From positions 1 to 41,862 of IMG/VR virus record IMGVR_UViG_3300031910_000021: 41,862 nt of DNA. One strand, given 5' to 3'. Source of the DNA: a virus. Lineage: Duplodnaviria > Caudoviricetes. Each line of letters begins with the position of its first letter. Position 1 is the first letter of the stretch. Below, in pieces: positions 9,463-31,685 of the stretch. The notes under the pieces are model-generated. The model was not told the DNA's origin, made no database searches, and saw only the letters and a program-made list of their open reading frames with translations. The position numbers and the translations under genes are program-made.

Positions 9463-9465
9463 TTC

Positions 9466-10482
9466 CTAGTTTGTCCAGGCTATTACTACACTTTGATCTG
9501 TTATCAAACCGAATCCCCAGATGGCATACCAACAAAGTGCATGTTCTCTACCGAAATCCAATACACCACCATCACGTAGCTCGACAGGCAACGCAATAGC
9601 ATGACCAAACGCATTGTCCCCCAGGTACATGGCCCCGTGGACGACGCCGGCATTGGTGACCGCGCCCATGCCTGGAGGCCCGGTGTTGATGGCGTACTGA
9701 CGAACCTGCGTAGTTTCAATGTATACTACGTCATTTAGACGACCGATCTCGCCTATCATGAAGTTTCCCGCACTGGCGTATTTCGTCATCTCGATGAACT
9801 CAGGGTTGTCACGCAGGCGGCGGGACTGGTGAGGGTCGATGAAGCAGACGTAGGTCTCACCGATCCTGGGGACGTTCTTGGTCGCCAGGGTCTCGACGGC
9901 GTCCTTGCTGACGTTCACCGACATGTAGAAGGTGCCGGCCAGGGCGCTGTAGTTCGCTGCCACGGTGCCAGCGTCGTAGGGCGACAGCGGTGTCCTGGTA
10001 GCGGTAGGAGCGGGAAGCTGGTAGCCGAAGATGGCGCTAGAGGCGGCGTACAGGGTGTCCCTGGCGCTGCCGTCCAGATACTTCGCCATGTTCCTGCCCA
10101 GGAGCCGCGAGGACGAGGCCATCACGTCATCGAAGCTGGCGTTCAGGAGCAACTCGCTCACGGCCACGGCGTAGCCCTGCTCAGCCACTGTGATGGCATA
10201 TTGTGATGCCGTAAGGGCTGCCGTCTGCATTCGTACACCTTCAACGAGTTGTGATGCATCTCCTAGGTTATTATATCTCATGAAGTTCACCTGGAGTCCA
10301 GGCTGAACGCCCAACTCGGTCTTTTTCACCGCAAACTGCTCATATCTGAGCACAGGCATGCTCTGGAACAGGATCTCCTTGCTCCAGATCACCTGGATGG
10401 CCGGCGAAAGCTGCGAGTTCGTCCCTGGGTAGCCCGTGGGGCTGGCACTCAGCAGCGGGGTTCCTGTGATGCTGGATGGCAC
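9466..10482 (-). CDS. Major capsid protein (N4-gp56 family)
   Basis: 338 aa after the scaffold; LRYEQFAVKKTEL...FMRYNNL...GEIGRL...DFGREHALCWY. Confidence 0.92.
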   Translation of the reverse strand: MPSSITGTPLLSASPTGYPGTNSQLSPAIQVIWSKEILFQSMPVLRYEQFAVKKTELGVQPGLQVNFMRYNNLGDASQLVEGVRMQTAALTASQYAITVAEQGYAVAVSELLLNASFDDVMASSSRLLGRNMAKYLDGSARDTLYAASSAIFGYQLPAPTATRTPLSPYDAGTVAANYSALAGTFYMSVNVSKDAVETLATKNVPRIGETYVCFIDPHQSRRLRDNPEFIEMTKYASAGNFMIGEIGRLNDVVYIETTQVRQYAINTGPPGMGAVTNAGVVHGAMYLGDNAFGHAIALPVELRDGGVLDFGREHALCWYAIWGFGLITDQSVVIAWTN

Positions 10483-10511
10483 TAGCCAACCTCCTTATTT
10501 CGGGTACTACC

Positions 10512-11315
10512 TCACTGTCCTCTACGACTAGCTGACGCTGCACGCAAGAGATCTTCTCGTTGAGAAGCGTAATCTTCCGCGGACATCGCCTTGAGTTCAT
10601 CTGCCGTATAGGTACGGCTTGTTTGACTGGATTCCATAGGACCGACTGGGGGCGCGGTTACGCCAACCATGGGACGACCGGCCTGGAGATTTCTCATGGC
10701 CTGGACGCTGTCACTTTTCATGTGTTCGGATTTTTGGACGAGCATGGCGATGGAAGAGTCGATCTCTTCCTTGCTGTTACCGCCCACGAGGTCACGAAGA
10801 ATGGGGACGATATTGTCGCCCTGCTCTGCCATGCGCTGAGCCATGTAGGTCTGGAGAGAGGCGTGATGACGCTCTTGCTCCAGGAGGGCAAAGGCTCTTT
10901 CCCTCTCCTGGCGCTCCTCCAGGAGGCGGGCCTCCCACTCCTCATCCTTCTTCTGGATGAGGTCGCGGAGTTCCATCTCTTCCTCTTCTTTTTTCTTCGC
11001 CACCCTGGCGGCATCCCGTTGGGTCTTGGCCTCCGCGGCCTGCCGGTCCTCCTCAGCCTTGCGGAACTGGGCCAGTTCATTTTCCAGGCCGTCCGCACGG
11101 GTCTGCTCTGCCAGCACCCGAGCACGCTCTTCCTGGCGGATGCGCTCGACATCCTCCTGGGTAAACGCCTGGGGCGGCTCTTCACTAGTGCGTTGGTTCC
11201 GATTGCCGCTGGTGGCCGGCGGCGGGGTGACCGGGACCGTGATGGTGTTGGGGTCAGGCGCGGGTGGATCGCCTTCAGGGGGCGCTGCGTTGGGGTCAGG
11301 TTCAACCGCGGTCAC
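10512..11315 (-). CDS. Capsid scaffolding protein
   Basis: Between portal and capsid; Pro-rich N-terminus, FTQEDVERIR coiled coil, C-terminal LKAMSAEDYA. Confidence 0.85.
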   Translation of the reverse strand: MTAVEPDPNAAPPEGDPPAPDPNTITVPVTPPPATSGNRNQRTSEEPPQAFTQEDVERIRQEERARVLAEQTRADGLENELAQFRKAEEDRQAAEAKTQRDAARVAKKKEEEEMELRDLIQKKDEEWEARLLEERQERERAFALLEQERHHASLQTYMAQRMAEQGDNIVPILRDLVGGNSKEEIDSSIAMLVQKSEHMKSDSVQAMRNLQAGRPMVGVTAPPVGPMESSQTSRTYTADELKAMSAEDYASQREDLLRAASASRRGQ

Positions 11316-13072
11316 GATTCATCCTCCTCTGGGAGTCGTCGTTGGGGGATCGTGGTGCCATGGGCCAAGGTCACGATCCGTTGGTACATCTTCGCCACGT
11401 CGGCGTTGTCTTTGAGGTCTAGACCAGGAGCCTGGGCGATCTTGGCGGCGGGAGCGGTGTTCACCTGGGGACCGCCGGCTGACTTGACACCACCGTTGCC
11501 GTTGCCCTTGCCACTGTTCCCCTGGGCGCTGGCCGGCGGGGGCGGCATGGGCTGAGGGCCTTCGGGGCTGACCATACCGGTCATGTTGGTGATGAGGGAG
11601 GCCACCTGGGCGCGCAGCATCTCCAGAGCAGCCTGTTGCTCCGCGTCGGCAACAAGCTCCTTGAAGAGTTCCTCCAGCTTCTCGTCGGGGAACTCCTCCC
11701 CCAGTTCCTCCAGGGCACCACGCTTGGACTCCAGACCCAGGGCCATCTTGACCTGTAGCTCGTTGAGCAGCACCAGCTTGTCCACCGGCAGCGGGGGCTG
11801 GAAGTGACAGGTGTTCTCGTAGCTCACCGGGTCCATGGGGTCCAGCATCGGAAGCGAGTCATCCCGCATGGGTGGGTCGAAGGTGTCGTTCCAGGTGAGG
11901 GTCTCAGGCTCCTTCATGAACATGGTCTTCAGCGCCAACCGGTTGATCTCTGCGATGCCCTCCCCGTACTGGGTGGACTTCAGCTTGAAGCGATTCATCA
12001 ACGGCTGGTACTGGATCGCCAGGGCCACGCCTGAGGTGTTGGAGATCGCTTGCTCCTCCCCAAGGGCCGTTTTAGGCACCCCGGTCATTTCGTGCATGGC
12101 GCTCTTGAGCACCTCTAGCAGCTTGATGGCCTGCTCGATGCCCCTTGGGTCGAAGAGCAAGTTCTCGACACGCGCATCCTTGTTCGGCACGCTCCACGTC
12201 TGATGTGTGCCCTTCTCCAGGTTGCTTGCTCTTGCCCCTATGACCACGGTTACCGGAGCGGCATGGTAGTTGACGATGTCGGCTATATCCGTAGCCGTTT
12301 CGTTGTACTGCCGGTTGAGCGGTGTGATGTCCTGTATGTCGGGCATGCCCCAGGGGGACGAGGCTATCGGCATGTTGCTGATGTGAACGATAGGGATCTC
12401 ACCCAGAGGGTTCTCCCTAGCGTCGATGAGTTCGTCATTGACGTACTCTTCGATCTGCTCTTCGGTCAATAGCTCCGTGTACGTGAAAACTTGACGGGTT
12501 CCCTCACTAGTTGTCCCCCAAAATCTGTACTTCAACTTAAAACGGATCAGGCGCTTCCTATCATGGGGATGCCATTCTGGAAATGCGAACGCGCTATTTA
12601 GAGGGAGGATGCGGACCCGTCCAGGGTGCGGCATTCCGGACGGGTCCACCCAGGGTTCTTCGTAAGCCACTTTGACGAAGCAGTCGCCAGTGACCGACCC
12701 CATACTCCCCATCTCCCAGAGCAAGGAATCCTTCTTGTTGTCCTTCTCCCAGATCCTCTGTAACCGCGTAGGTACAATGGCTGACGTAGCGTCAGGGGAG
12801 CGGAAAGACACGCCCTTACCGAAGACAAAGTTGGTCGTAAAATCGCTCAGAGCACGTACCCAGTTAAACGTAAGCTGTGGATCACCAAGGTCTGGGCGTT
12901 GCGCCCAGTGGTATCCCAGATAGAAGGCCCAGTTCATGGCATAACGATTGAGCCTGGGGCCATGCACCTCAAACTCTTCGTCAGCTAGCTCAACCAGCCC
13001 GAGCGGGGATATCTGGATCGTTAGATCACTGGATGCCGCTCTATAACTGGGAGACTGGAACTGGATTGACAT
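11312..13072 (-). CDS. Portal protein (SPP1 gp6-like)
   Basis: 586 aa; ENPLGEIPIVH, SNTSGVAL motifs; position upstream of scaffold and capsid. Confidence 0.9.
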   Translation of the reverse strand: MSIQFQSPSYRAASSDLTIQISPLGLVELADEEFEVHGPRLNRYAMNWAFYLGYHWAQRPDLGDPQLTFNWVRALSDFTTNFVFGKGVSFRSPDATSAIVPTRLQRIWEKDNKKDSLLWEMGSMGSVTGDCFVKVAYEEPWVDPSGMPHPGRVRILPLNSAFAFPEWHPHDRKRLIRFKLKYRFWGTTSEGTRQVFTYTELLTEEQIEEYVNDELIDARENPLGEIPIVHISNMPIASSPWGMPDIQDITPLNRQYNETATDIADIVNYHAAPVTVVIGARASNLEKGTHQTWSVPNKDARVENLLFDPRGIEQAIKLLEVLKSAMHEMTGVPKTALGEEQAISNTSGVALAIQYQPLMNRFKLKSTQYGEGIAEINRLALKTMFMKEPETLTWNDTFDPPMRDDSLPMLDPMDPVSYENTCHFQPPLPVDKLVLLNELQVKMALGLESKRGALEELGEEFPDEKLEELFKELVADAEQQAALEMLRAQVASLITNMTGMVSPEGPQPMPPPPASAQGNSGKGNGNGGVKSAGGPQVNTAPAAKIAQAPGLDLKDNADVAKMYQRIVTLAHGTTIPQRRLPEEDES

Positions 13073-13306
13073 TTACTTCTCTGTGACCGGGGAAGCCTGC
13101 TTGAGGTACTTCTCCTGGGTGATGGGTAGCCGGCGGCGCTGTTGCTGACGTAGTTGGCGGCGGGCGTCCTGCTTGGCAAGCTGCACTGTCTCAGACTGGG
13201 TGGCTATCGAGGCGTGTCGGGGCTTGACCCGGTTAGCGAGGACCGACGACGCCAGGATGGTAGGAGGCGGTGAACCGGCGAAGGGCTGGACACCAATGTC
13301 ACTCAT
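13073..13306 (-). CDS. Hypothetical protein
   Basis: MSDIGVQPF... from ATG 13306, abutting the portal start. Confidence 0.45.
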   Translation of the reverse strand: MSDIGVQPFAGSPPPTILASSVLANRVKPRHASIATQSETVQLAKQDARRQLRQQQRRRLPITQEKYLKQASPVTEK

Positions 13307-13511
13307 CGCCGGCACGGTGGGTGGGGTTACCGCGATACACACCGTCGATGGCCTGGCCCAGGTCACTCATTTTGGGAGCGCGACCACCTTCCCGCCTGGG
13401 GGAGGTCGACAGCGGGCTGGCGTGTGGATCACGCCGGTCGTTCCACAGCGTCTGCACGTCCATGTACTCGACGTTCACACCATGGGTTGGGTAGTCGTGT
13501 ACCTCTGCCAT
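13299..13511 (-). CDS. Hypothetical protein
   Basis: MAEVHDYPTHG... with TGATG coupling to the upstream gene. Confidence 0.45.
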   Translation of the reverse strand: MAEVHDYPTHGVNVEYMDVQTLWNDRRDPHASPLSTSPRREGGRAPKMSDLGQAIDGVYRGNPTHRAGDE

Positions 13512-14761
13512 CAGAACAAACTCCCTTGCTGGCCGTGTTGGGCCTCGTGCTGCCTGGCTTGCAGGATCGGGTTCACCATCGCTTCGTCGGGGGCCTTGGC
13601 CCCCTTCTTCTTGCTGCTGTAGGAGGTGATCTTCTGCTCGTACCAATGGACCGGTTGAGCCACATGGGAGGGCAGGCCCCGCTGCTGAGCCGCGGTCTTC
13701 AGGGCGTGAGAGAAGTAGAGGTTCATGGCGTCGATGCTCGCCCCAGGCTCAAAGGGATGCTCGACGTTGTGAACCTTGGTGTTGTGGCTACCGCTCATCA
13801 CATCGGCACGGGTGTCCTCACCGAAGTCCTTGATGCCGGCACCACCACGCCACTCGTGCCGGTCGATCACCGGGTTGGCGTCCACCACCCTGGGGAACTC
13901 CTGGGCATCTCCGTAGGTGCCGGCCTTCACCGCCCAGTCCGACGCAGCTACAGCACTGCGTACCGGGGCACCCCTCGATCTCGACTTGGTGGCACCGGCA
14001 CTCTCCCCCGGTACGTCGAGTGGGTGGACGCCAGATCCCTCGTTGTGGATGATCCTGGCTGCATTCCTGGCGGTGGTGTGGAACCCACCTGTGCCCACCG
14101 GGGGCGACTCGCCCTCAGGTTCTTTCACTGGATCTCGGAACTGATTGATGTCGGGGTTGTGTACCAACTGCTGAGCGATCCGACCCGTGCGGTTGAGGTC
14201 GGTGTCAGGGTCCGAGTTGTGACTCAAGGCAGCCCTGGCGTAGTGGACCGTCGAGGTGTTCAGCCCCAGGTGAGCAGCAAGCTGGCCGCTCCTACGCTGG
14301 TCAGTACCAGGCCCTCCGGTGTAGTAGTCCTGGCCGGTAGCGACGTTGGAACCGCGGTTGTGGGCGCGGATGTAAGCGTTGTCGAGATCGGCTCCGTAGT
14401 GATGGACGATGTCACCGAAGTGCAGCCCGAGCCTCTTGTGAACATCGGCCTCGACACCGGCCCGAACATGGTCAGGGAGGTCGTCCCAGGTCGCCTGGCG
14501 CTTCATGTCGATGGGAGTGTGTTGTTGGCCTAGATCCAACCTCCCCTGAGTGCGCTGCTTCTCCTGCATCGTGGCGTGGGTAGGGAAGTGCTCCTCCTGG
14601 GACCACTTGGGATCGAGCCAGCCGTGGGCCTGGTAGTCCTCTTGGGTGTACTGGCCTGGCTCCTTGTCGAAGCTGCCGGCACGAGCAGGCCGCGGCGTGC
14701 CAGTGCCCTGGGCCATAGCGGCCATCTCATGAGGGCCAGGAACGCTGGAGCGTTTGTTCAC
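13511..14761 (-). CDS. Hypothetical protein, possible HhH-GPD/DUF7178-like domain
   Basis: 416 aa; GQDYY...AALS...NAARII...K...PVIDRH...AAQQRGL...QPVHW layout recalled from DUF7178-type phage proteins; ends QQGSLF. Confidence 0.5.
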   Translation of the reverse strand: MNKRSSVPGPHEMAAMAQGTGTPRPARAGSFDKEPGQYTQEDYQAHGWLDPKWSQEEHFPTHATMQEKQRTQGRLDLGQQHTPIDMKRQATWDDLPDHVRAGVEADVHKRLGLHFGDIVHHYGADLDNAYIRAHNRGSNVATGQDYYTGGPGTDQRRSGQLAAHLGLNTSTVHYARAALSHNSDPDTDLNRTGRIAQQLVHNPDINQFRDPVKEPEGESPPVGTGGFHTTARNAARIIHNEGSGVHPLDVPGESAGATKSRSRGAPVRSAVAASDWAVKAGTYGDAQEFPRVVDANPVIDRHEWRGGAGIKDFGEDTRADVMSGSHNTKVHNVEHPFEPGASIDAMNLYFSHALKTAAQQRGLPSHVAQPVHWYEQKITSYSSKKKGAKAPDEAMVNPILQARQHEAQHGQQGSLF

Positions 14762-14961
14762 GACCCTCCCCAGGTGGAGTGTCGCCAGGCCCCCCTGCCA
14801 CGTACCACGTCAGCGCCACACTGCTTGCACTGGGCAGCTATCAGGCTCGTACCCCTGGGACCGGCCCTGACTGGACCCTGGGCCTCAGCCGCGTGACTGA
14901 CGGGAGCGGTGCGCCGGCCTTCTTGCCGGCGGTCAGGGAAGAGGTCTGGGCGAAGATCCAT
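14758..14961 (-). CDS. Small hypothetical protein (CxxC...WRH)
   Basis: TAATG coupling; CKQCG...WRH motif. Confidence 0.45.
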   Translation of the reverse strand: MDLRPDLFPDRRQEGRRTAPVSHAAEAQGPVRAGPRGTSLIAAQCKQCGADVVRGRGAWRHSTWGGS

Positions 14962-15152
14962 TACCAGTTGTGCCTCCCGCCCTTGGTGTTGGCGTACATG
15001 GCCGCGGCCTGGCCGAGTGTCCTGTCGCTCTGCTTCTCGTCCCAACCCACGTTCGGGTCATCGAGGGCGGTCTTGACCTCCTCTGGGTTGGCTCCGTAGT
15101 GCTGGACAGCATGGGTCAGGATGCGGACCTTCCGGCCCTCCTCCAGGGCCAT
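14961..15152 (-). CDS. Small hypothetical protein
   Basis: 63 aa, tightly packed in the operon. Confidence 0.5.
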   Translation of the reverse strand: MALEEGRKVRILTHAVQHYGANPEEVKTALDDPNVGWDEKQSDRTLGQAAAMYANTKGGRHNW

Positions 15153-15154
15153 GA

Positions 15155-15556
15155 TCAGTCGGTGACGACTTCGGGAGACCGCCTCTTCTGGATACCGCCC
15201 GAGCGGAACACCTCCTCGTAGCGGACCTCAGCCTGGTCAGTAAATGAGCCGTGGGCGAACTCACCCAGCATTGTGGGGGCGTCGATCCAGGCTGCCGAGC
15301 CGACGTGTGCCCGCTCCTGCATGGTCTCGTCGGGCATCTTGAACTGCACCTGAGGGTCGACGTGATTTATGCGGCCAGGGGCGCTGACCATGAACTCGAT
15401 CATGCCCCGCTGGAAGTCGGTGGGAATGTCGGTGTCAGTACTCAAACCCTCCTCGAATCGCAGCGGGCCGCGCCCACCTGGGGCGTTCGGCCCCATGGTC
15501 TCGTCGTAGGCGTACCGGCCGCGTTCGGGAAACTGCGGTTCGGGGGCCAAACTCAT
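15155..15556 (-). CDS. Conserved-looking virion hypothetical protein
   Basis: GGAGG RBS; GPLRFEEG..TDTDIP...ERAHVGSAAW; first gene after the late promoter at 15587. Confidence 0.65.
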   Translation of the reverse strand: MSLAPEPQFPERGRYAYDETMGPNAPGGRGPLRFEEGLSTDTDIPTDFQRGMIEFMVSAPGRINHVDPQVQFKMPDETMQERAHVGSAAWIDAPTMLGEFAHGSFTDQAEVRYEEVFRSGGIQKRRSPEVVTD

Positions 15557-15586
15557 CGGCTTTCCTCCCTCGTCGGGTTGTATCTC

Positions 15587-15594
15587 AGGCTAGG
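15587..15594 (-). promoter_or_regulatory. Putative late promoter -10 (CCTAGCCT)
   Basis: Same octamer as at 2109 and 17440; upstream of the head operon. Confidence 0.55.
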
Positions 15595-15702
15595 CTGTGC
15601 GGCACTTCCCCCCTAGACCACCCGACGGGCCATGCCTCGCCGTACCTCGTCGTGCCGAGCCAGTCCCCATCTCCCCTCACCAAACCGACGTACCAGGGTG
15701 AA

Positions 15703-15729
15703 CACGCCTCCAGCTAGCCTGGAGGCGTG
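15703..15729. terminator. Hairpin downstream of terL
   Basis: CACGCCTCCAG-ctagc-CTGGAGGCGTG, perfect 11-bp stem, no U-tract. Confidence 0.45.
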
Positions 15730-15793
15730 AGCGCGTCCGAGACCTGGGCACATAACACCTCGATGAACCGGGCCATCGGCTCCGACGCCGCGG

Positions 15794-17431
15794 CTAAGCC
15801 GGCTGTCGGCGCTGACGAGGACGAGCAGTCCTCGCCCGACGCGCCCCAGCCGCCCACGGGGTCGACTGGATCTCAACCTCAGGGACCATCAACACCTGGG
15901 ACATGATGGTGGCGCAGGACAGTGAATCGACGTAGTCGTCATGCACGCCGGCCTCGTTCGGGGCAGCTACCACGAGGTGAGCACCCTTGTAAGTCTTCTC
16001 CACATCCACCATCTGGGTTCGGAACCGACGCCAGGTCTTGGTCCGCTTGGCCCTGGGATGCGCCGGCCACGACAGCAAGCCCCGCTGGAGTAACTGCTGG
16101 AGGTGCTTCCACCTGGCACTTTGATCCTGGATCTGTGACGACAGTGGTTCCACCTGGATACGTGGCAGCAGTCGCTTCAGCCGATCAGCAGCTACGTCGC
16201 CAACTCCTTGAGCGTCAACGCCGCAGGCCACGATGGAGTAGTTGCTGAAGAAATCCACGATCCGCCAGTACTGATCCTCCCATTCTTCCCCGTGCATCTC
16301 CAGCCAGTTCAGGATGCGACAGTCGTATAGCCCCAGTTCGTCCGGTCGGTCCCAGTCTACGAAAAGCACCGTGACCACGGTGGAGTCCATGCGGCGGGCA
16401 AAATCTATGCCGGCCACCAGGGGAGAACGCCAGTAGCTCTGGACGATGGGCATGGTGGGGTCACCAAGCTCGTCCATACGAGTCTCTGTGACCAACATGC
16501 CCCGTTCCAGGAGCCACTCCAACCTGTAGTTGAGCCTGAACTCATCGCTGTCCTCCCCGATCCGCATGGCCTCACCGCGGATGTAGGCCGCGTAGTTCTT
16601 GTTGAACCGGGCGCAGTAGTGCCAGTCGAACCGGAAGTGGTTCTTCTTGCCACCCCGGCGTAGCTCCATGCGCCGGTTCATCTGGATGGTCTTGAAGAAG
16701 GCCCCTTTAATGATGTCAGGAGTGCCGGTCATGACCATGGTCGCCAAATAAAAGGCTCCCATCGGAGCGATGGATTTATTCAAAACGTACTCGTCCACCG
16801 ACTGGGATTCGTCTACAAAGATGACATGGTACGACTTGGACTCGATCTTGGCCCTGGGGTTGGCGGTCTGCATGGCGCAAAAGCTCTGGCATTTTTTCAA
16901 GCGGACCTTCCGCGACCCTGGGCGCACCACGTCATCGATCTCTGGGTCTTCCAGCATCTCCAGCGCCCGCTCTGAGGTCAGACGGTCCACCACACGTCCA
17001 AACAGAGTCTCAACCTGCTGCTCAACTGGAGCGAAGCAACCGACCATGACCCCCTTGCGGAACTTCGCGAGCATGCCCACGTCAGGGAACATCTCAGCTA
17101 ACCGCGGTAACAAGATCATCAGGCTGGCGGCGACGTTGGCGATGACCTCTGTCTTGCCGCTCTGGCGGGAGCATTCCCCAGTGATAGTGGCCCCATCTCC
17201 GCTGATGACGCTCTCGATGATGCGCCGGCCCAGGGTCTCCTGGTAGGGGAACATATCCACCCCGCTGAAGATGAGCGTGAACTCCCACACCTTGTCCACA
17301 AGGCGGTCCACAAACTGCTGGTCGTTGGGGTCCAGGACAGGCGGGGCGTACTGGGCCAGGTCGTCGGAGAGGCCATCCTCACCTGGCTCCAGGTCGTCTT
17401 CCCCCAGGGTGGGGTCATCCACGTAGGTCAT
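15794..17431 (-). CDS. terL: Terminase large subunit
   Basis: YQ motif, Walker A SRQSGKT, Walker B IFVDESQ, motif III TGT, nuclease AGIDFA and HDDYVDS. Confidence 0.95.
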   Translation of the reverse strand: MTYVDDPTLGEDDLEPGEDGLSDDLAQYAPPVLDPNDQQFVDRLVDKVWEFTLIFSGVDMFPYQETLGRRIIESVISGDGATITGECSRQSGKTEVIANVAASLMILLPRLAEMFPDVGMLAKFRKGVMVGCFAPVEQQVETLFGRVVDRLTSERALEMLEDPEIDDVVRPGSRKVRLKKCQSFCAMQTANPRAKIESKSYHVIFVDESQSVDEYVLNKSIAPMGAFYLATMVMTGTPDIIKGAFFKTIQMNRRMELRRGGKKNHFRFDWHYCARFNKNYAAYIRGEAMRIGEDSDEFRLNYRLEWLLERGMLVTETRMDELGDPTMPIVQSYWRSPLVAGIDFARRMDSTVVTVLFVDWDRPDELGLYDCRILNWLEMHGEEWEDQYWRIVDFFSNYSIVACGVDAQGVGDVAADRLKRLLPRIQVEPLSSQIQDQSARWKHLQQLLQRGLLSWPAHPRAKRTKTWRRFRTQMVDVEKTYKGAHLVVAAPNEAGVHDDYVDSLSCATIMSQVLMVPEVEIQSTPWAAGARRARTARPRQRRQPA

Positions 17432-17439
17432 CCCCAACC

Positions 17440-22369: not shown

Positions 22370-22527
22370 CCTTTGATCGTGACCTGGCTGCCTTTCAGAA
22401 ATGGCTCGCCAGACAAGTTCGGGAGGCCGAGAAGCACCAGGGACATGTCAGCGATGAATATCAGCAGGGTTGGCTCGACGCCATGAATGACGTGCTGGCG
22501 GTGCTGGTAGAGGAGTTCGGGGCATGA
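22366..22527 (+). CDS. Small hypothetical protein
   Basis: MTFDRDLAAFQKWL...; ATGA overlap with the SNF2 gene. Confidence 0.5.
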   Translation: MTFDRDLAAFQKWLARQVREAEKHQGHVSDEYQQGWLDAMNDVLAVLVEEFGA

Positions 22528-24098
22528 CCTTCAAGGGGTCGTTGTACCCCTTCCAGGAAGAAGCGGTCGACGCCATGATCGACATGCAACACCTCCTGGT
22601 GGCCTACGAGATGGGCCTGGGCAAGACAGTTATCACTATCGCCGCGGTAGAAAAGCTGATCGAGGACGGCCAGGTGGGCGGGGGGCTGATCATCTGCCCT
22701 GCCTCCATCAAGTTGCAGTGGAAAAGGTTGATCGAGGACTTCGCCCCCGACGCCAACGTGATCGTGGTCAACGGCACAGCCCCTCAGCGCGAGGCCCAGT
22801 ACCAGCGGTACAAGCGCGGCGAGGGTGAGTACTGCATCATCAACCCCGAGCAGATGGTCAACGACTGGGAGATAGTCTCCCGGCTGCCTAGGGACTTCAT
22901 CGTGGCCGACGAGGCGACGTGGTTCAAGAACTTCAAGCCGCAGCGGTCCAAGAAGATCAAGCGGCTCAAGGCCACCTACCAATGGGCCTTGACGGGCCAG
23001 CCAGTGGAGAACCGGGCCGAAGAGGTCTACTCGATCATGTCCTGGATCAACCCCACCGTCCTGGGCAACTTCAAGACCTTCGACGCCGCCTTCATCAAGC
23101 GTGATCCCTGGGGCCGGGTCAGGGTCTATCGGAACCTGCCCACCCTGCACCGGCTCCTGTCCGAGCACATGGTCAGGCGCACCAGGAGCGAGGTAGCCGA
23201 CCAGCTACCCGCGGTAGTGGCACCGGCACCCATCCTGGTGGAAGCAGACCAGGGCACCAGGATGCTGTACCGGCGCATGGTGCATGACCTGGAGGCCGAA
23301 CTGGCTGAGGCCATGAACACCTGGGGGAACTTCAGCCTGAGTGGCTTCTACCGCGGTGAAGAGCAGGGCGAGGCCCGCGGTCGGATCATGTCGAAGATTA
23401 CCTGCATGAGGATGTTGGTTGACCACCCCGAGCTACTGCGGCTCTCCGCGGCGCACTACCGCGGGGTACTACCTGGCAACCGCATGGGCAGCGAGTACGC
23501 CCAGGAGCTACACGCCGCCGGCAGGCTGGAGGGCCTCAAGAAGGCTCCCAAGCTGGATGCCTTGGTGGGGACAGAGGACAAGCCAGGGCTGATCCGAGAG
23601 ATCCTGGAAGCCCACCCCGAGAACAAGATCGTTTTTTTCAGCTTCTTTAAGGACATGCTCGACATCGTGGCCGAGCGCACCAGGAGCCTGACCAAGTCGG
23701 TGCTCTTCACCGGGGCCGTGTCGATCACCAACCGGGACAAGGCCAAGCAGACCTTCGCCACCGATCCTGACACCCGACTCTTCCTCTCCTCCGATGCTGG
23801 CGGGATCGGATTGGATCTTCCTGTAGCAAACTACCTCATATCGTATGATTTGCCCTGGAGCAGCGGAGCGTTCGCCCAACGCCAGAGCAGGATCATCCGC
23901 CTGAGCAGCAAGTTTCCCCAGGTCACCCTGCTGACCATCCAGGTCGCCGGGAGCATCGAGGAGTACCAACACGCCTTGTTGGCCCAGAAGAAAAAGGTGG
24001 CGGAAGCAGTGGTCGACGGCAAGGGGATTAATACCCGAGGAAATCTGACGCTGGATCTCAGAAGCCTGACCGATTTTTTGGGGACCAGTCAGATATAG
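22524..24098 (+). CDS. SNF2-family helicase
   Basis: YPFQ, EMGLGKT, IVADEA, LTGQPVEN, SSDAGGIGLDL, YDLPW, QRQSRIIR. Confidence 0.93.
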   Translation: MTFKGSLYPFQEEAVDAMIDMQHLLVAYEMGLGKTVITIAAVEKLIEDGQVGGGLIICPASIKLQWKRLIEDFAPDANVIVVNGTAPQREAQYQRYKRGEGEYCIINPEQMVNDWEIVSRLPRDFIVADEATWFKNFKPQRSKKIKRLKATYQWALTGQPVENRAEEVYSIMSWINPTVLGNFKTFDAAFIKRDPWGRVRVYRNLPTLHRLLSEHMVRRTRSEVADQLPAVVAPAPILVEADQGTRMLYRRMVHDLEAELAEAMNTWGNFSLSGFYRGEEQGEARGRIMSKITCMRMLVDHPELLRLSAAHYRGVLPGNRMGSEYAQELHAAGRLEGLKKAPKLDALVGTEDKPGLIREILEAHPENKIVFFSFFKDMLDIVAERTRSLTKSVLFTGAVSITNRDKAKQTFATDPDTRLFLSSDAGGIGLDLPVANYLISYDLPWSSGAFAQRQSRIIRLSSKFPQVTLLTIQVAGSIEEYQHALLAQKKKVAEAVVDGKGINTRGNLTLDLRSLTDFLGTSQI

Positions 24099-24108
24099 TT
24101 GGCTCCTA

Positions 24109-24130
24109 CCTGCTCTACTCTTAGAGCAGG
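24109..24130. terminator. Hairpin bordering array 1
   Basis: CCTGCTCTA-ctct-TAGAGCAGG, 9-bp stem. Confidence 0.6.
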
Positions 24131-24583
24131 GATCCGAATCGACAAGCCAGTCCAGTCCAGATCCATACCGACGACCCCTGCCCCGTCTGGTCATCTCGCG
24201 TCGGGCCGCCCCTACCCGCCTCCAGCCGACATGCCTACCCGCACCATGCCCGATCTAGCCACGCCGACAAACCCTCCCAAGTCACGCCGTATCCCATCCC
24301 TCCGAGCCGACATACCCGACCTTGTCCTTCCGGCTCACACCGACATGCCTAACCGGACCATGCCGAGCCGAGCCATCCCGACTCGTCAGCCCAGGCCATG
24401 TTTCATCCCAGATCAGTCCGCGCCAGATCGACGTTCCATGCCGCACCCGATATCAAGCTTGACCCACCCGACTTGCCAACTCTCGATCCAGCCACCTCCA
24501 TTCTGACCGACACGCCCTGCTGCACCCTACCCATCCAAGCCGACTAGCCCCGCCTAAGCCTAGCCGTCCCATGCCGACGAACC
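24131..24583. ncRNA. Pentamer-periodic putative guide array 1: 11 units of (NN-RCC)n-GAC
   Basis: Example unit: gaccc ctgcc ccgtc tggtc atctc gcgtc gggcc gcccc taccc gcctc cagcc GAC. The minus strand reads GTC(GGY-NN)n. Transcribed strand unknown. Confidence 0.75.
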
Positions 24584-24596
24584 AAAGGAGAAAATA

Positions 24597-25325
24597 ATGC
24601 CGAGAACACCAGCAGAACCCGTCGAGGAAATCCCCGTCGCCCGCCTCAAGGAAGACCTTTCCCTCTATCCCCGTCGCAGGATCGACACCACTAACATCTC
24701 CACCCTGGTGGAGGCATATGAAGCCTTCAATGCCGGCGAGGGGGACGAACCTCCCCCAATCATCGTCACCCGCGGCAAAGTCATTGTCGACGGCGTCCAC
24801 CGGGCCAGGGCCAAGCGGAAGGTCTACGGGGATGACGCCACCATCTCCTGCATCGTGCGTCACTACCGGACCAAGGCCGAGATGTTCTACGACGCCTGCA
24901 TGCTCAACAGCGGGAGGGGTCACGACCTGTCGCGATGGGATCAGCTTCATTGTGTCGAACTAGCACGGGAACTCAAGCTGCCCATCGAGCGGCTCGCCAA
25001 GGCCCTGGGCTGGACTTCTGAGCGGCTCCTGTCCTTCAGCGAGAGGCGGGCCACCCAGACCCTGAGCGGCAAAAAGACGCACCTCAAGTCTTCTCTCCTG
25101 TCCCAGAAGAACGGCCCCATAAGCGAAGAGGTGGAAGCGATCAACGAGACACCTGGCGGTGTCGACGGCATGTCACCGGCCTACCACGCCCGCATGCTGC
25201 TGATGCACCTCCAGGCCGACAGTATCCCCTACGAGGCCAACCTGGCTCACAGGTTGGCTGACCTGGCAGCCGCCATCGAAGAGTGGCTGTCCAACTATGG
25301 GGCCGAAGAAGAAGAAGCCCAATAG
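24597..25325 (+). CDS. ParB/Srx N-terminal domain protein
   Basis: AAGGAG RBS; LYPRR...PPIIVT...IVDGVHRARA...LNSGRGHDLS. Confidence 0.8.
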   Translation: MPRTPAEPVEEIPVARLKEDLSLYPRRRIDTTNISTLVEAYEAFNAGEGDEPPPIIVTRGKVIVDGVHRARAKRKVYGDDATISCIVRHYRTKAEMFYDACMLNSGRGHDLSRWDQLHCVELARELKLPIERLAKALGWTSERLLSFSERRATQTLSGKKTHLKSSLLSQKNGPISEEVEAINETPGGVDGMSPAYHARMLLMHLQADSIPYEANLAHRLADLAAAIEEWLSNYGAEEEEAQ

Positions 25326-25337
25326 AAAGGAATCACC

Positions 25338-26117
25338 ATGTCCGCATCCGATATTTTCAAGTTCCAGTCCCGGTGGACGACCTACACCGGATCCCTCCAC
25401 ATCAACACCCTGGTCGGTGGCATCCCCAAGGACGGGGCCACCATCCACGCCTTCGTCAAGGCCCGCATCACCGACAACGCCTCCGAGATGAGCCGCATTG
25501 CCGAAGAGACCATGGTCGAAATGGGTCTTGACCCTGTTCTCGACAAGGATGAACTGAGCGCCGCCCAGGTCGATGAGATCGTGGACAAGGTGTCCAAGAA
25601 GGCCGTGGCCGGCAACGGCTTCAAGCAGATCAACGGTGAACTGGTCTGGGAGGGTCGCTGTCTCAAGGCTGCCCTGAACGAGGCGTGCAATGCCCTCTAC
25701 CCAGGCGTGGAATCCTTCCCCGGCAAGCCCGACAAAACCAAGAAGGGCCTCAAGAGCTACTTCATAGAGCGGGTGGAAGTCGTTGACTACTACATCCCCC
25801 TGGGCCGCACCGAGCCTGACATCAAGGGCGAGGAGCGCATCAAGCACATCAGCGGCCCCCAAGGCAAGCGCAGCGCCATCAACCTCGTGGACGTATGCAC
25901 TGACCTGGACATCACCTTCACCATCAAGGTGCTGAACGACTGGGTGCCACAGGAGTTGTGGCAGGAGCTTTTTGAGTACGTCGAGTTGGGTGGCGTATGG
26001 GCTGACCGCGCCCGCGGTGACGGGCGTTGCGAGCTAACCTCCTGGGAAAAATCGACCGACTCCAGGAGCGTCACCCGCTCCAACGGCAAGCGCCGGCTTG
26101 CCACCACCGCGTCATAG
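25338..26117 (+). CDS. Stand-alone Cas7/RAMP-like protein
   Basis: N-terminal strand TYTGSLHINTLVGGIP; ELVWEGRCLKAAL (cf. RAMP p.ipgssLKGal); LDITFTIKV; C-terminal G-rich loop GGVWADRARGDGRCEL (cf. GlGa.Rs.G.Grf). Confidence 0.75.
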   Translation: MSASDIFKFQSRWTTYTGSLHINTLVGGIPKDGATIHAFVKARITDNASEMSRIAEETMVEMGLDPVLDKDELSAAQVDEIVDKVSKKAVAGNGFKQINGELVWEGRCLKAALNEACNALYPGVESFPGKPDKTKKGLKSYFIERVEVVDYYIPLGRTEPDIKGEERIKHISGPQGKRSAINLVDVCTDLDITFTIKVLNDWVPQELWQELFEYVELGGVWADRARGDGRCELTSWEKSTDSRSVTRSNGKRRLATTAS

Positions 26118-26121
26118 CAGG

Positions 26122-26145
26122 GAGGGGCGGCTTAGACCGCCCCTC
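26122..26145. terminator. Hairpin bordering array 2
   Basis: GAGGGGCGG-cttaga-CCGCCCCTC, 9-bp stem. Confidence 0.6.
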
Positions 26146-26909
26146 ACACCAAACCAAACCGACTTGCCGTTTTCCTTGCCGTGCCTGACCCGATCACGCC
26201 TAGCTGACTCGCCAACCCATGTCTCCCCCAGCCGACTCGCTCCGACAACCCTGACTACCCGACCCTGGCCGTGCCCGCTCAGGCCCTGCCGACTAGCCTC
26301 ACCCGTCCCGGCCCCGTCCTGCCAACCCTTGCCGTGCCGACACGCCTGCCCCAGCCATCCCTCGCCGTTACGGGCCTCGCCTAGCCGACTATCCCCGCCT
26401 TCCCGTGCCAAGCCGCTCCGACATCTCCGGCCCGACCCCCTCAAGCCAATCCGACCCGCCATCCCCGTTCTTTTCTCTCTCAGGCCCAGCCGACTCGCCA
26501 CGCCTCGTCCCCCCCTTCCCGGCCTACCCCACCCTGACCGACCCGCCAAGCCTGCTCCGACCCAGCCGCGCCCTCGCCAGACCTTGCCATGCCGACACTC
26601 CAGTCCCTGCCCCCCTTGCCCCGAACCACCCCAGCCGACTGCCCTTGCCGCATCACGCCGACCCAGGCCAGACCTCGCCAAGCCGACTCGCCCATCCCTG
26701 TCCACCCATCTCATCCCGACTTGCCGTCCCGCGCCACGCCCCGCCGAGTCTTATCCCGCCGAGTCATGCCGACTCGCCACGCCGCGCCGGCCCGTGCCGC
26801 GCCTCGCCTCGCCCCGCCAAACCGACCCACCAATCTCCTGCCCAGTCAACCCGTGCCCCGCCGACTCGCCTCGCCGTGTCATGCCCTGCCCTTGCCTCGC
26901 CTAGCTGAC
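26146..26909. ncRNA. Pentamer-periodic putative guide array 2: about 18 units of (NN-RCC)n-GAC
   Basis: Example units: tagcc tcacc cgtcc cggcc ccgtc ctgcc aaccc ttgcc gtgcc GAC acgcc tgccc cagcc atccc tcgcc gttac gggcc tcgcc tagcc GAC. ORFs here are low-complexity artefacts. Confidence 0.8.
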
Positions 26910-26914
26910 TAACC

Positions 26915-27271
26915 ATGACCTTTCGCGGCCCTCAGTACCTTTTCTGCGGCAGCCGCCTTACCTCAGACACCCTGATCCTCCGACTCCTTCTCACGGGCCT
27001 GAACTCCCAGGCCCGTGAATGGAGCGAGGTCATCACCATCCAGGACAATGGCACCCTGGAGGGGTTAGAACACGAGGTGAGCATGTTCCGCCACCTGAAG
27101 CACCAGGAAGTAGGGGAGTGGTCTGATCCCAACGTCGTACTGTGCTTCATGGACCGGATGTCCATGAACCGCGGTACTGAGCGTCTCCTGCAACGTGCTG
27201 AGACAGAGAAGCGCCCCTGGTTCGTGATTGGCAACGCCAGCGACCGGAGGCAATCCCCGGTGGAGGGTTAA
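26915..27271 (+). CDS. Hypothetical protein, SLOG/YspA-like
   Basis: YLFCGSR N-terminus; PNVVLCF...RGTERLLQRA...PWFVI. Confidence 0.5.
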   Translation: MTFRGPQYLFCGSRLTSDTLILRLLLTGLNSQAREWSEVITIQDNGTLEGLEHEVSMFRHLKHQEVGEWSDPNVVLCFMDRMSMNRGTERLLQRAETEKRPWFVIGNASDRRQSPVEG

Positions 27272-27301
27272 CGGTCACACCCCCTCTGTACCCTTAGCAG
27301 C

Positions 27302-27769
27302 ATGGCAACCAAGACCAAGACCAAGCCGAAGCTGGATCTCAAGGGCCTGCGCCAGGAGGTGCGCGAGTGGTACGCCCTCAAGCGTCAGGATGCCCTGCTG
27401 GCACCCAAGCTGAAGAGAGGCACCGACCGGTTCAAGGAACTCCTGGGAATATATGGAGAGAAGGATCCCTCAGACGGCTCTATTTATCTGGATCTGGAAG
27501 AGCCGATGGGGGACCAGCGCATCCAGTTCTTGAAGAACCTGTGCGTGGTGTCCAAGAACATCGACGTGGAGGTGGCCCAGGAAATCCTGGAGTCAAAGGG
27601 CATCTGGGAGGAGATGTCGGAAGAGATCCGCGTCCCCGATGAGAGCCGGATCGCCGCTGCCTATTACGACAACCGCCTCAACGATGACGAGTTCGCCCGC
27701 ATGTTCCCAGCAGTCACTTCATATCGCTTCTTCCTGTTGGACGAAGATCGGAAGCCAGTTCGGGCATGA
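27302..27769 (+). CDS. Hypothetical protein
   Basis: 155 aa; TACCCT -10-like box 7 nt before the ATG (leaderless geometry). Confidence 0.7.
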   Translation: MATKTKTKPKLDLKGLRQEVREWYALKRQDALLAPKLKRGTDRFKELLGIYGEKDPSDGSIYLDLEEPMGDQRIQFLKNLCVVSKNIDVEVAQEILESKGIWEEMSEEIRVPDESRIAAAYYDNRLNDDEFARMFPAVTSYRFFLLDEDRKPVRA

Positions 27770-28655: not shown

Positions 28656-29310
28656 GGAGCCGCCCTCCACCCTCCGATCCAACCGCCCCCATCCCTCCGA
28701 GCGCCGGCCTACCCGTGACGAAGCCGATGACGACCGCGGTCTGGCCGTCGCCAAGGGTTGGGGTGGCTACAAGCGCACCAAGGCCAACGCCCCCTCCCAG
28801 TGGACGAAGCTGTACAAGGTGCCCGACGAAGAGGGCCTGATCATGTTCCTGGAGGACGGCCCATATGCGTCATTTTTGATGCATTGGTGCGAGTGGATGC
28901 CCAGAGGCAGCCGGCTCAGCTATGTGTGCCTCCAGGAGGATTGCCCGCTCGACGGTGTCGATCCCAAGCCTGCGGCCCGCATCCGGTTCAACATCCTGGA
29001 CTGCGGTGGTGACACGCCCATCCTGGTGACGTTTGAGTGTGGTGTCTCGGTGACCGAGATGCTGGAAGAGTATTCTGAGGATGAATCCCTGAGTGGCCGG
29101 TACTTCGCCGTAGCCATGAAGGGACCGAAGAACTCCAAGCGCACTCAGATCCGCCCCGTAAAAATCCGTGACCTCAAAGAGGACTGGGATTTTGAAGCAT
29201 TGACCGAAGACGAGGTCGCCAAGTTTGACGACCGTCTTTGGGACGACACATCCCTCGACGTTGCTTCCAAGGCAGAGCTACAAAAAGTGGCCGATGCCTT
29301 CAACGAGTAA
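28564..29310 (+). CDS. Putative single-stranded DNA-binding protein (gp32-like)
   Basis: AAGGAG RBS; IMFLEDGPYASFLMHW...YVCL..DCPL; acidic C-terminus; upstream of the polymerase. Confidence 0.65.
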   Translation: MAQPRRLVRPRPAEEYDEAPPEEGRRRLRREEPPSTLRSNRPHPSERRPTRDEADDDRGLAVAKGWGGYKRTKANAPSQWTKLYKVPDEEGLIMFLEDGPYASFLMHWCEWMPRGSRLSYVCLQEDCPLDGVDPKPAARIRFNILDCGGDTPILVTFECGVSVTEMLEEYSEDESLSGRYFAVAMKGPKNSKRTQIRPVKIRDLKEDWDFEALTEDEVAKFDDRLWDDTSLDVASKAELQKVADAFNE

Positions 29311-29321
29311 GGGTCCGAACG

Positions 29322-31685
29322 ATGGTGCCGGCAAGGCCCGCCGTCGTGTCGGAAAGGGGAGGGGGCCGGTACCCGCCACCGGCCCCTTCCCTCAACATCC
29401 CGAAGTGTGACCTTGTCTGGATCACACCGGGACAGACTGCGGGGGACTGGAACTACGGGGGCGGGGCGCAACATCGGCGCTGCATCCTGCTCATCGACCA
29501 CGAAGGGGATCACGATACTGGCGAGGGGGAGCGGGACCGCAACGTGGTCAACCGCTCCAGGTACAAGTGGGGGGCACGCGGCTTCACCACCGAGCAGGTC
29601 TATCGATCCGAGACCATCAGGATCGAATGGGAGGCGCGGAACCGCCCCCAACCCATCAAGAAGCTCAAGGACTTCCACGAGTTTGAGTCCTGGGTGGAGG
29701 CCGGCTGCCCAGGTGTGCGCCGGCCCGTCGAGCGGGGCTGCGGCCCCATCGCCACCATTCGCACCATGGAGCAGCTAAGAGAAGTGGTGGAGATCTACTC
29801 GGCATTTTCCGAGTTCGCCTTCGACGTAGAGACCCGCGGTAGCCGGCGGGTTCGCATGCTGCAACCGGGTCGGAGAGTGCTATCGAGATACGCGGAACAG
29901 ACCTCGCCCTGCCTGGCCTGTGGCAACCCCATCTCTTCCAGGCGGCGGGCCTACTGCTCCGACCTATGCCGCAAGACGGCTGACAAGGACAAGCCGGCCC
30001 TCGACACCCGAACCAACGAGGTTTGGTGTCTATCCCTCGCCGGCCCAGGCGTGTCTCACGTCATACCCATGGGGCACCCCGACAAACGCCAGCAGCTACA
30101 TCGGGCCGATGTTTTTGAGGCCCTGCGCCCGTTGTTCTTCTCCAGCCGGCGCAAGATCAATCAGAACGTCGGGTTCGACTTGTTGAGCATCGCCAAGTAC
30201 TACGAGGGCAAGATCCCACCCCCGCCCTACGCCGACATCATGACCATGGTGTTCTTGATCAACGAGAACCTTCAGTCCTACCGGCTGGAGGCCCTCACCA
30301 AGCACTACCTGGGCTACAAGTACGCCGAGAAGTTGGGCGAGGAAGCGTACAACGTCGAGTGGAAGCGGGCCATGAGGTACTCGATCATCGACGCCAAGAT
30401 GGCCTGGATGCTGTGGTGGAAGCTCCACCACGTCCTGGAGGACAAGCCGAAACTGGGCAACCTCTTCCGCCTGGAGATGGACGTGCTTCGGGTACTACTC
30501 GCCATGAAGCAGACGGGGGCCTACGTCGACATCGAGGGGTTCCGGACCCTGAGGCCCCAGTTGGAGACCCAACTGGCTGAGGTCACCAGCACCATCCGCG
30601 ATCTCGGCTTCACGGGCAATCTCAACAGCACCCACCAGCTAGCCAGGTTCCTCTACGACGAGAAGAAGCTGCCCTGCCTGTGGATGACCGAGACCGGCCA
30701 GCGGTCCACCGCGGCCAAGGCCCTCAAGTCCCTGGCTCGCCGGCACCAGGAGCCGCGCAAGATCCTGGAGTACAAGGACGTGAACAAGCTGCTCAGCACC
30801 TATGTGGCCGGGTTCATCCCCACCATCGATGACGACAGCCGGATCAGGGCCAGCTTCAACCAGGCCGTTGCCCGAACGGGCAGACTCTCGTGCAGCGGTC
30901 CCAACCTCCAGAACATCCCAGCCAGGTACAAGGAGTCGGTCGAGGCCACCCTGATACGACAACTTTTCGTGGCCCCACCTGGCCGGCTACTCATCGTGGC
31001 CGACTACAGCCAGATCGAGCTACGCGTCCTGGCCCACATGACCAGGGACAAGATGCTGATGTACGCCTACACCCACGGTCTCGATCTCCACACCCAGACG
31101 GCCAGCCTGGTCTACCGGGTGCCCCAGGGCGATGTCAGCGTCGAACAGCGGGCCATCGCAAAAAACTGCAACTTCAACTTCGCTTTTGAGGGCGGATTTA
31201 CCAGGGTCATGGACATGTCAGGCATCGGTGAGGCACAGGCTCGCGCCGTCTACGACGCCTGGCACCGGGCCTACCCCGGTGTCAAGAGGTGGGGGGCCGT
31301 GACCAAGCGGTCCTGCCTCCAGCACGGCTATGTGGAGACCCTCTATGGGCGAAAAAGACGTTTGAAAGACATCTCTTCCCGAGACCCCAAGGACCGCAGC
31401 TATGCCGAGCGCCAGGCGGTCAATCATCCAGTACAAGGCACCGCGGCTGACCTGGCGAAGATCGCCATCGTCCGCGTCCACCAGGCCCTCCAGGAGTTCC
31501 ATGCCGATCTCGTGCTTCAGATCCATGACGAGTTCGTGATCGAGTGCGACGAGGGGGAGGTGGACGAGGCCATACCGTTTATCAGAGAGGCCATGGAGGA
31601 CATCCGCCTGGATGACCGGCCAGTCCTCGATGTACCCCTGGAGGTCACCATCGGGGTCGGTAAGAACTGGAGCGAGGCGAAATGA
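29322..31685 (+). CDS. polA: Family A DNA polymerase (3'-5' exonuclease plus polymerase); start uncertain
   Basis: ExoI FDVET, ExoII NVGFDL, ExoIII YSIID; TGRLSCSGPNLQNIP; motif A ADYSQIELR; motif B; motif C QIHDE. Confidence 0.95.
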   Translation: MVPARPAVVSERGGGRYPPPAPSLNIPKCDLVWITPGQTAGDWNYGGGAQHRRCILLIDHEGDHDTGEGERDRNVVNRSRYKWGARGFTTEQVYRSETIRIEWEARNRPQPIKKLKDFHEFESWVEAGCPGVRRPVERGCGPIATIRTMEQLREVVEIYSAFSEFAFDVETRGSRRVRMLQPGRRVLSRYAEQTSPCLACGNPISSRRRAYCSDLCRKTADKDKPALDTRTNEVWCLSLAGPGVSHVIPMGHPDKRQQLHRADVFEALRPLFFSSRRKINQNVGFDLLSIAKYYEGKIPPPPYADIMTMVFLINENLQSYRLEALTKHYLGYKYAEKLGEEAYNVEWKRAMRYSIIDAKMAWMLWWKLHHVLEDKPKLGNLFRLEMDVLRVLLAMKQTGAYVDIEGFRTLRPQLETQLAEVTSTIRDLGFTGNLNSTHQLARFLYDEKKLPCLWMTETGQRSTAAKALKSLARRHQEPRKILEYKDVNKLLSTYVAGFIPTIDDDSRIRASFNQAVARTGRLSCSGPNLQNIPARYKESVEATLIRQLFVAPPGRLLIVADYSQIELRVLAHMTRDKMLMYAYTHGLDLHTQTASLVYRVPQGDVSVEQRAIAKNCNFNFAFEGGFTRVMDMSGIGEAQARAVYDAWHRAYPGVKRWGAVTKRSCLQHGYVETLYGRKRRLKDISSRDPKDRSYAERQAVNHPVQGTAADLAKIAIVRVHQALQEFHADLVLQIHDEFVIECDEGEVDEAIPFIREAMEDIRLDDRPVLDVPLEVTIGVGKNWSEAK

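What the first reader, a model, noticed from the sequence alone, without database searches (positions are those of the whole stretch)
26827..26865. Array 2 unit decodes to PolA PNLQN(V/I)P in the opposite orientation
The plus-strand NNs CC AA CT CA AA GT CC read P-N-L-Q-N-V-P, against the conserved family A motif PNLQNIP at 30900-30920 (6/7 dinucleotides match; self differs only at AT vs GT). One element is a hexamer (aatctc). This unit matches the coding strand as read on plus, whereas 26640-26687 matches it as read on minus. Whichever strand is transcribed, guides therefore address both strands, which suggests a dsDNA rather than an mRNA target. Host polA carries the same motif and is an alternative target.
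Basis: partly seen in the sequence, partly recalled or inferred. Interest (0 to 1): 0.8.

Follow-up and report, generated by a model that had tools for sequence, protein, structure and literature searches.

The report
Phage VIPR guide against rival polymerases
This 39-base repeat unit is one of about two dozen likely guide RNAs of a phage RNA-guided silencing system (VIPR, first described in 2026); read two bases at a time, it matches a conserved DNA polymerase motif of related phages, which it likely silences, and the array may use a C-rich rather than the published G-rich guide scaffold.

Summary
The unit reads CC AA CT CA AA GT CC and matches the phage's own polA motif (30900-30919) at 13 of 14 bases. 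The flanking RAMP gene is a Vipr: its five best AlphaFold DB matches are the five seeds of the VIPR paper. The 1-nt-skip code and the targeting of either DNA strand are therefore already published. The self match alone is weak (13 of 1260 orderings do as well). Across related phages the signal is strong: 4 of 18 units, this one included, hit conserved replication-gene sites in at least 5 of 10 relatives. This holds only with a 1-nt skip, in both orientations, and for 0 of 1080 shuffles. A sister phage keeps this unit's dinucleotides, GT included, while scaffold bases change. Exact 14/14 sites lie in more distant relatives with PNLQNVP, and in only 5 of 300 Actinomycetota genomes. Possibly new: on the vipr strand the scaffold is RCC/NN in short GAC-delimited units (35 of 43 loci, none GG), beside a ParB-like gene. 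Which strand is the RNA is untested.

The parts
26824..26862 (+). The finding's unit: GAC delimiter plus 7 NN (CC AA CT CA AA GT CC) alternating with RCC-like scaffolds, one of four bases; predicted guide to the family A polymerase PNLQN(V/I)P motif
   Evidence: six NN kept in sister locus L404
30900..30919 (+). Own polA site PNLQNIP, 13/14 match, skips on third codon positions
26146..26914 (+). Array 2: GAC-delimited (NN RCC)n units, ending at the start codon of the next gene (26915)
24138..24580 (+). Array 1: same architecture, ending at the ribosome-binding site of the ParB-like gene
25338..26117 (+). vipr gene (259 aa RAMP; G-loop GGVWADRARGDG)
   Evidence: model pLDDT 80; PDB top hits Csm3/Cas7; AFDB top five = the VIPR paper's seeds
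24597..25325 (+). ParB-N-like accessory gene (candidate vap)
   Evidence: PHROG 1033, E 1e-4; ESM Atlas ParB_N clusters, family on 12-38% of members; no Pfam hit
26122..26145 (+). Hairpin between the vipr stop and array 2
   Evidence: z -3.4
24109..24130 (+). Hairpin ahead of array 1
   Evidence: z -2.75 for the 51-nt stretch
26637..26684 (+). 9-NN unit matching the template strand of relatives' polA exonuclease motif FDLLSVAK (17/18); self 5 mismatches
24170..24227 (+). 11-NN unit matching the coding strand of relatives' SNF2 helicase motif DLPWSAGAYAQ (21/22); self 5 mismatches
26863..26906 (+). 8-NN unit matching the template strand of relatives' homologue of ORF 27302 (14/16; 15/16 on an alternative parse); self 3-4 mismatches
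24228..24265 (+). 7-NN unit shared 7/7 with sister locus L404; target not found
29238..31685 (+). Family A DNA polymerase ORF (longest frame; the true start may lie further in)
22524..24098 (+). SNF2 helicase; own version of the targeted motif at 23847
27302..27769 (+). Hypothetical gene whose homologues are matched by unit 26863 and by L404 unit 976

Best explanation
The unit lies in a repeat array beside a Vipr-fold gene and is likely a short VIPR guide RNA that would lead Vipr to the conserved polymerase motif in the double-stranded DNA of related, competing phages and likely silence that gene. Shown: the array, the Vipr fold, and the 1-nt-skip matches in both orientations to conserved replication-gene sites of relatives. 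Inferred from the published VIPR mechanism: Vipr subunits coat the RNA one per repeat, hold the scaffold trinucleotides and pair the NN bases with a target strand in which every third, wobble, base is skipped; the bound complex blocks transcription. Inferred here: the array is cut into 23-53 nt units at the GAC delimiters. The preferred targets are relatives that encode PNLQNVP, such as provirus G034 and record G035 (14/14), and the V/I base is what spares the phage's own gene. The guide strand is more likely the vipr-sense, C-rich one (about 65%).
For: Vipr identity. Skip-1 specificity: 4 of 18 window units hit at least 5 of 10 relatives with skip 1, none with skips 0, 2 or 3, and 0 of 1080 shuffles do. 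This unit hits 9 of 10 against at most 4 for 1259 other orderings. Sister locus L404 (Vipr 83% aa) keeps CC AA CT CA AA GT and the tctc scaffold; over the two shared units 0 of 26 NN bases against 7 of 40 scaffold bases differ, Fisher p 0.037. About 920 viral stretches hold the exact pattern; about 100 of the 120 listed are in-frame polA by eye, 91 by a strict motif test. A control unit gave about 170 stretches, with 4 of 123 matches in an open codon-phase frame. G034 and G035 match 14/14 and share the replication module with the window; G034 also shares capsid (62%), portal (51%) and terminase (50%). Vipr was found in none of the 5 records at least 90% complete and in 4 of 38 records in all. 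The other assigned guides differ from self by 4-5 bases, and by 3 for L404's own gene (read from its protein).
Against: Self and nearly all close relatives share AT at this position (AT in 33 of 34 aligned codons; no V among the motif matches). A one-base self/non-self margin is much thinner than for the other guides. No other window unit matches G034 or G035 convincingly. Fourteen of 18 window units have no assigned target. Across 178 units from all loci, skip 1 gave 7 hits against 2-5 in shuffles, so no clear excess outside this family. The self-escape signal is only suggestive: 3 of 26, 19 of 183 and 22 of 40 equally conserved windows diverge as much. The four-base scaffold could disturb the register. 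Expression, processing, binding and silencing were not observed.
Confidence: 0.6

Rival explanations
1. The C-rich strand is the RNA, so the guide's G faces a T in PNLQNIP sites as a tolerated G-T wobble. The unit then targets the whole close family and also the phage's own polA, as deliberate damping of its replication or at a tolerated cost.
For: 13/14 match in 9 of 10 relatives and in self. The single mismatch here and in unit 26637 is G for A, a wobble only for the + strand RNA. The other assigned guides aim at these close relatives.
Against: Self is identical to the relatives at all read positions, whereas other guides avoid self by 3-5 bases. The VIPR paper found no self hits at 80% or more in three guide sets. 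Mismatches in units 24170 and 26863 are not of this wobble type.
Confidence: 0.2
2. The target is the host's chromosomal polA, silenced to favour the phage polymerase.
For: An extended exact pattern is in host-type polA context in 112 of 120 listed genome hits, many of them Actinomycetota, about 1200 stretches in all. The phage encodes WhiB, pointing to an actinobacterial host.
Against: Only 5 of 300 sampled Actinomycetota genomes have the exact site. The host is unknown. All other assigned guides hit phage genes.
Confidence: 0.1
3. The complex acts on RNA (mRNA for some units, antisense or the other array strand for others) rather than on dsDNA.
For: The fold is closest to Csm3/Cas7 of RNA-targeting complexes among solved structures. 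SUSP1 VIPR can pair with ssRNA in vitro.
Against: Guides match both orientations of genes from one array orientation. Characterised VIPR silences via dsDNA, and RNA gives mostly incomplete filaments.
Confidence: 0.06
4. The polA match of this unit is chance, or the unit is a decayed guide.
For: Only 14 informative bases; about 1% of orderings match self as well; p 0.12 by best mismatch; irregular scaffold.
Against: Hits the same conserved in-frame site in 9 of 10 relatives; a second unit hits the same gene; NN bases are kept in L404.
Confidence: 0.04

Closest known systems
VIPR systems (10.64898/2026.04.26.720920; structures 10.64898/2026.04.26.720927)
   Same: Phage-borne two-gene locus with a stand-alone RAMP (Vipr), no CRISPR array or cas genes seen; flanking arrays of period 5; variable NN read with a 1-nt skip on the wobble position; targets on both strands; targets are other phages.
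   Different: On the vipr strand the scaffold is RCC/NN, whereas SUSP1 has GGY/NN on the vipr strand (23 against 0 triples). Units have mostly 5-8 NN (mode 6) against 9-16 repeats. GAC delimiters give period 5n+3, with no per-unit structured tail. The G-loop is G-[AS]-D-R against G-D-W-R. The protein is 259 aa against about 20 kD. The accessory gene is ParB-like. The paper lists seven types and NNNGG variants whose figures I could not see, so this clade may already be one of them, read on the other strand.
SUSP1 type II VIPR against satellites and relatives (10.64898/2026.10.15.759431)
   Same: Guides read codon positions 1-2 of conserved sites; conflict among related mobile elements; many relatives lack vipr.
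   Different: Targets here are conserved motifs of core replication genes (polA twice, SNF2 helicase) of the phage's own family, and one site matches self at 93%.
Non-canonical VIPR-like arrays (10.64898/2026.10.21.760802)
   Same: Vipr-like folds beside 5-mer arrays whose fixed trinucleotide is not GGY (GAC/NN, CAC/NN, WGT/NN, TGH/NN are named).
   Different: RCC/NN with GAC delimiters is not named in the passages and section read; Fig. S10 could not be seen.
Class 1 CRISPR Csm3/Cas7
   Same: RAMP fold with G-loop.
   Different: No repeats-spacers, no other cas gene seen in the window, non-contiguous pairing.

Membership tests
VIPR | Vipr-type RAMP protein outside a CRISPR locus | tested here: met
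   AFDB top five hits are the five Vipr seeds, E 5e-13 to 4e-6, ahead of all CRISPR RAMPs; no cas Pfam among 43 ORFs scanned of 303 listed
VIPR | Minimal locus with an accessory gene and long flanking non-coding regions in a virus | tested here: met
   ParB-like ORF plus vipr between two arrays; virus record
VIPR | Pentanucleotide repeats alternating a fixed trinucleotide with variable NN | tested here: met
VIPR | Guide RNA with GGY/NN or a related consensus | tested here: inconclusive
   GG only on the strand opposite vipr (35 of 43 loci CC, 0 GG); the transcribed strand is unknown
VIPR | 1-nt skip code with the skip on the wobble position | tested here: met
   4 of 18 units with skip 1, none with skips 0, 2, 3; 0 of 1080 shuffles; all four in codon phase
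VIPR | Targets on either strand | tested here: met
   two coding-strand and two template-strand readings
VIPR | Vipr binds the array RNA and silences dsDNA targets | not testable with these tools
   needs pull-down, binding and reporter assays
VIPR type II (SUSP1) | 9-16 GGY repeats plus a structured 3' tail on the vipr strand; G-loop D177-W178-R179 | tested here: not met
   units mostly 5-8 NN; opposite orientation and G-loop A-D-R
CRISPR-Cas type III/IV | Direct-repeat/spacer array and multiple cas genes | tested here: not met
   no such array seen in the tandem-repeat scan or the locus; no cas family; the record is 36% complete

The most novel reading that the evidence does not exclude
A large Vipr clade (985 proteins at E 0.001 among 50%-identity representatives) has switched its RNA code. 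It reads a C-rich scaffold transcribed with the vipr operon, cut at GAC delimiters into tail-less guides of only 12-18 informative bases, with G-loop residues changed to match. These phages use it to silence conserved replication motifs in their own relatives, including other VIPR carriers, and this unit either discriminates self by one base or throttles the phage's own polymerase.
Probability: 0.5. Interest if true: 0.72.

Novelty: new variant of a known kind. Interest (0 to 1): 0.5.

Why it matters
The added value is a clade with a different apparent scaffold, very short multiplexed guides and a ParB-like partner, plus concrete guide-target pairs in kin phages. If the C-rich strand is the guide, Vipr scaffold specificity is switchable through the G-loop, which would give an orthogonal programmable repressor and a test of how RAMP RNA recognition evolves. 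The one-base self margin makes this unit a ready test of mismatch tolerance and self-discrimination, which I did not find addressed in the parts of the papers I read (no 'mismatch' or 'seed' in the structure paper).

Tried and rejected
Exact scans of viral contigs for unit 26637 (18 bases) and unit 26718 (18 bases) found nothing. Unit 26291 (16 bases) gave 7 unrelated hits, and unit 24228 only background. GAC as a paired part of the guide was rejected: bases before assigned targets vary (TAC, CTG, TAG, AGG, CAG, GCT, TCG). Mismatch-type asymmetry as a strand test had too few and mixed cases. Promoter scans called none in the window locus or in L007, L019 and L030; the two calls in or at arrays of L407 and L017 are not telling. 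A TTGACA-18-TACCTT site just ahead of the L007 array on + is by eye only. No RNA holder was listed. Rfam found nothing. Sequence search of PDB gave nothing meaningful. Vipr was not found in the 301 Actinomycetota genomes searched. WhiB gave no match in named phages, so no host lead. Earlier scan findings: none returned. No complex prediction was run.

Full report
Setting. The window is a whole 41,862-base virus record, estimated 36% complete. It has terminase, portal, capsid, WhiB, DnaB, primase, SNF2 helicase, family A polymerase and RecA genes. Close relatives (capsid 94%, polymerase 79% for G001) are about 115 kb. Two C-skewed intergenic regions, about 24138-24580 and 26146-26914, flank two ORFs on +.

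Observation. The finding's bases parse as CC acc AA tctc CT gcc CA gtc AA ccc GT gcc CC gcc GAC. The gapped pattern matches own polA at 30900-30919 with one mismatch, GT against AT. Taken alone this is weak: 13 of 1260 orderings do as well in the window, and best-mismatch against related phage DNA gave p 0.12.

The protein. ORF 25338-26117 has no Pfam or PHROG hit. It has 46 close homologues, and a profile of 45 of them finds 985 representatives. Its model (pLDDT 80) matches Csm3/Cas7 in the PDB. In AlphaFold DB its first five hits are A0A1F4YLN4, A0A2D6XG06, X1U2U4, A0A0F9A1L0 and A0A661D0E2, exactly the five entries the VIPR paper names as its founding hits. The upstream ORF 24597-25325 is ParB-N-like. 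In VIPR, Vipr coats an RNA of GGY/NN repeats, the NN pair with dsDNA skipping one base, the skip falls on the wobble position, either strand can be targeted, and the outcome is transcriptional silencing of competing elements.

Decoding the arrays. My parser, which favours C-rich scaffolds, found 24 GAC-delimited units of 5 or more NN. I scanned the 18 units of 7-11 NN against ten related genomes (0.76 Mb; near-identical copies of the window phage left out, arrays masked). Four hit at least 5 of 10 genomes with a 1-nt skip, none with skips of 0, 2 or 3, and 0 of 1080 shuffled units did. The four are: 24170, helicase DLPWSAGAYAQ, best 21/22, coding reading; 26637, polA FDLLSVAK, best 17/18, template reading; 26824, polA PNLQNIP, 13/14, coding reading; 26863, homologue of ORF 27302, 14/16, template reading. 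For the finding's unit, 9 of 10 genomes are hit, against at most 4 for the other 1259 orderings. Against this: 14 of 18 units have no target, and 178 units pooled from all loci showed no clear excess in 4.8 Mb (both strands counted; 7 against 2-5), probably because their targets were not in my set (inference).

Conservation of the unit. Sister locus L404 (Vipr 83% aa; 82% nt) shares only two units with the window. One is this unit, with CC AA CT CA AA GT and the tctc scaffold kept and the last NN absent. Over the two shared units, 0 of 26 NN bases and 7 of 40 scaffold bases differ (p 0.037). The GT is therefore not a recent slip. L404 unit 976 matches two relatives 18/18 and the window phage 17/18, so VIPR carriers may also target each other (inference).

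What is the target? Close relatives have PNLQNIP like self. Exact sites are common in viral polA: about 920 stretches, about 100 of 120 listed in frame by eye and 91 by a strict test, against about 170 and 4 of 123 for one control unit. Two of them, G034 (provirus, 96% complete, no Vipr) and G035, are distant members of the same phage group. Host-type polA can also match: 112 of 120 listed hits of an extended pattern, but only 5 of 300 sampled Actinomycetota genomes. The other three assigned units differ from self at 4-5 bases. At the exonuclease site self has TTG TTG AGC where most relatives have CTN CTN TCN, the kind of synonymous change that would escape a wobble-skipping guide, though 19 of 183 equally conserved windows diverge as much. 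I therefore favour V-bearing relatives as the target, with one base sparing self, and keep wobble-tolerant family-plus-self targeting as the main rival.

Which strand is the RNA? In SUSP1 the GGY arrays are on the vipr strand (23 against 0). Here 35 of 43 loci examined have CC-periodic arrays on the vipr strand, none GG, and 8 have none (eight duplicate loci left out, and the rest are not independent). For the C-rich strand as RNA: arrays run up to the next gene's ribosome-binding site or start codon in the window and many loci. The third scaffold base is a pyrimidine in 199 of 199 window scaffolds on + but would be a purine in 58 of 199 on -, while the SUSP1 pocket excludes purines there. The Arg of that pocket is kept, while the Asp and Trp that read the two G's become Ala/Ser and Asp (read from the G-loop alignment, the rest aligns poorly). 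L407 has a + terminator after its array and L019 a - terminator between the array and the next gene. Against: the paper reports NNNGG variants, which fit the - reading; the hairpins beside both window arrays could be 3' ends of antisense RNAs; scans found no telling promoter. I put the C-rich reading at about 65%.

Literature seen. 10.64898/2026.04.26.720920: whole text with methods and figure legends and a term search of its supplement. Figures, tables S1-S3 and data S1-S4 were not visible and bear directly on whether this clade is one of its seven types. 10.64898/2026.04.26.720927: parts 1-2 of 6 and a term search. 10.64898/2026.10.15.759431: parts 1-2 of 8 and passages. 10.64898/2026.10.21.760802: passages and section 4.22. 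Five searches listed no paper on a C-scaffold, GAC-delimited or ParB-linked VIPR; this is limited to that library.

Verdict. A real feature and a guide of a known kind of system.

Noticed in passing
L042, L044, L055, L067, L075 polA: A long insertion ending in H-N-C sits directly before the S-x-PNLQNIP motif, which looks like an intein end (recalled pattern), next to the site this unit matches.
   Followed up: no
L041, L042 against window 29751-31685: PolA agrees with the window until 30427 in the differences printed and then diverges sharply, suggesting recombination inside polA.
   Followed up: no
L027:10872-12807: A very long array of about 45 units after a Vipr homologue; L030 has three arrays.
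   Followed up: partly
L011-L015, L017-L019, L021, L022, L024, L025, just after vipr: A conserved leader in which a small hairpin is inserted after the first CGAC and followed by TAGCC.
   Followed up: no
L020, L031, L028: Vipr homologues (55%, 29%, 26%) with no clear array within 2.5 kb on either side.
   Followed up: no
G027:C1:26942-27588: A Vipr-like match in two pieces on the - strand at the end of a related phage contig.
   Followed up: no
L213:3001-4181 (Microcystis phage Mae-JY09, PP395641.1): The only named phage with a match (31%); it has the same CCGAC-delimited array and visibly G+C-rich DNA, odd for the stated host.
   Followed up: partly
window 25338-26117: Nearly invariant G-G-x-P-x-D (D32) after the first strand; whether it is catalytic and cuts the array at GAC is unknown.
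   Followed up: no
window 8929-17437: The terminase-portal-capsid block is on the - strand between + strand modules; two collagen-repeat genes lie at 5311 and 7377.
   Followed up: no
window 27268-27292 and 29355-29394: Inverted-repeat-like stretches after ORFs 26915 and 28501, seen by eye.
   Followed up: no
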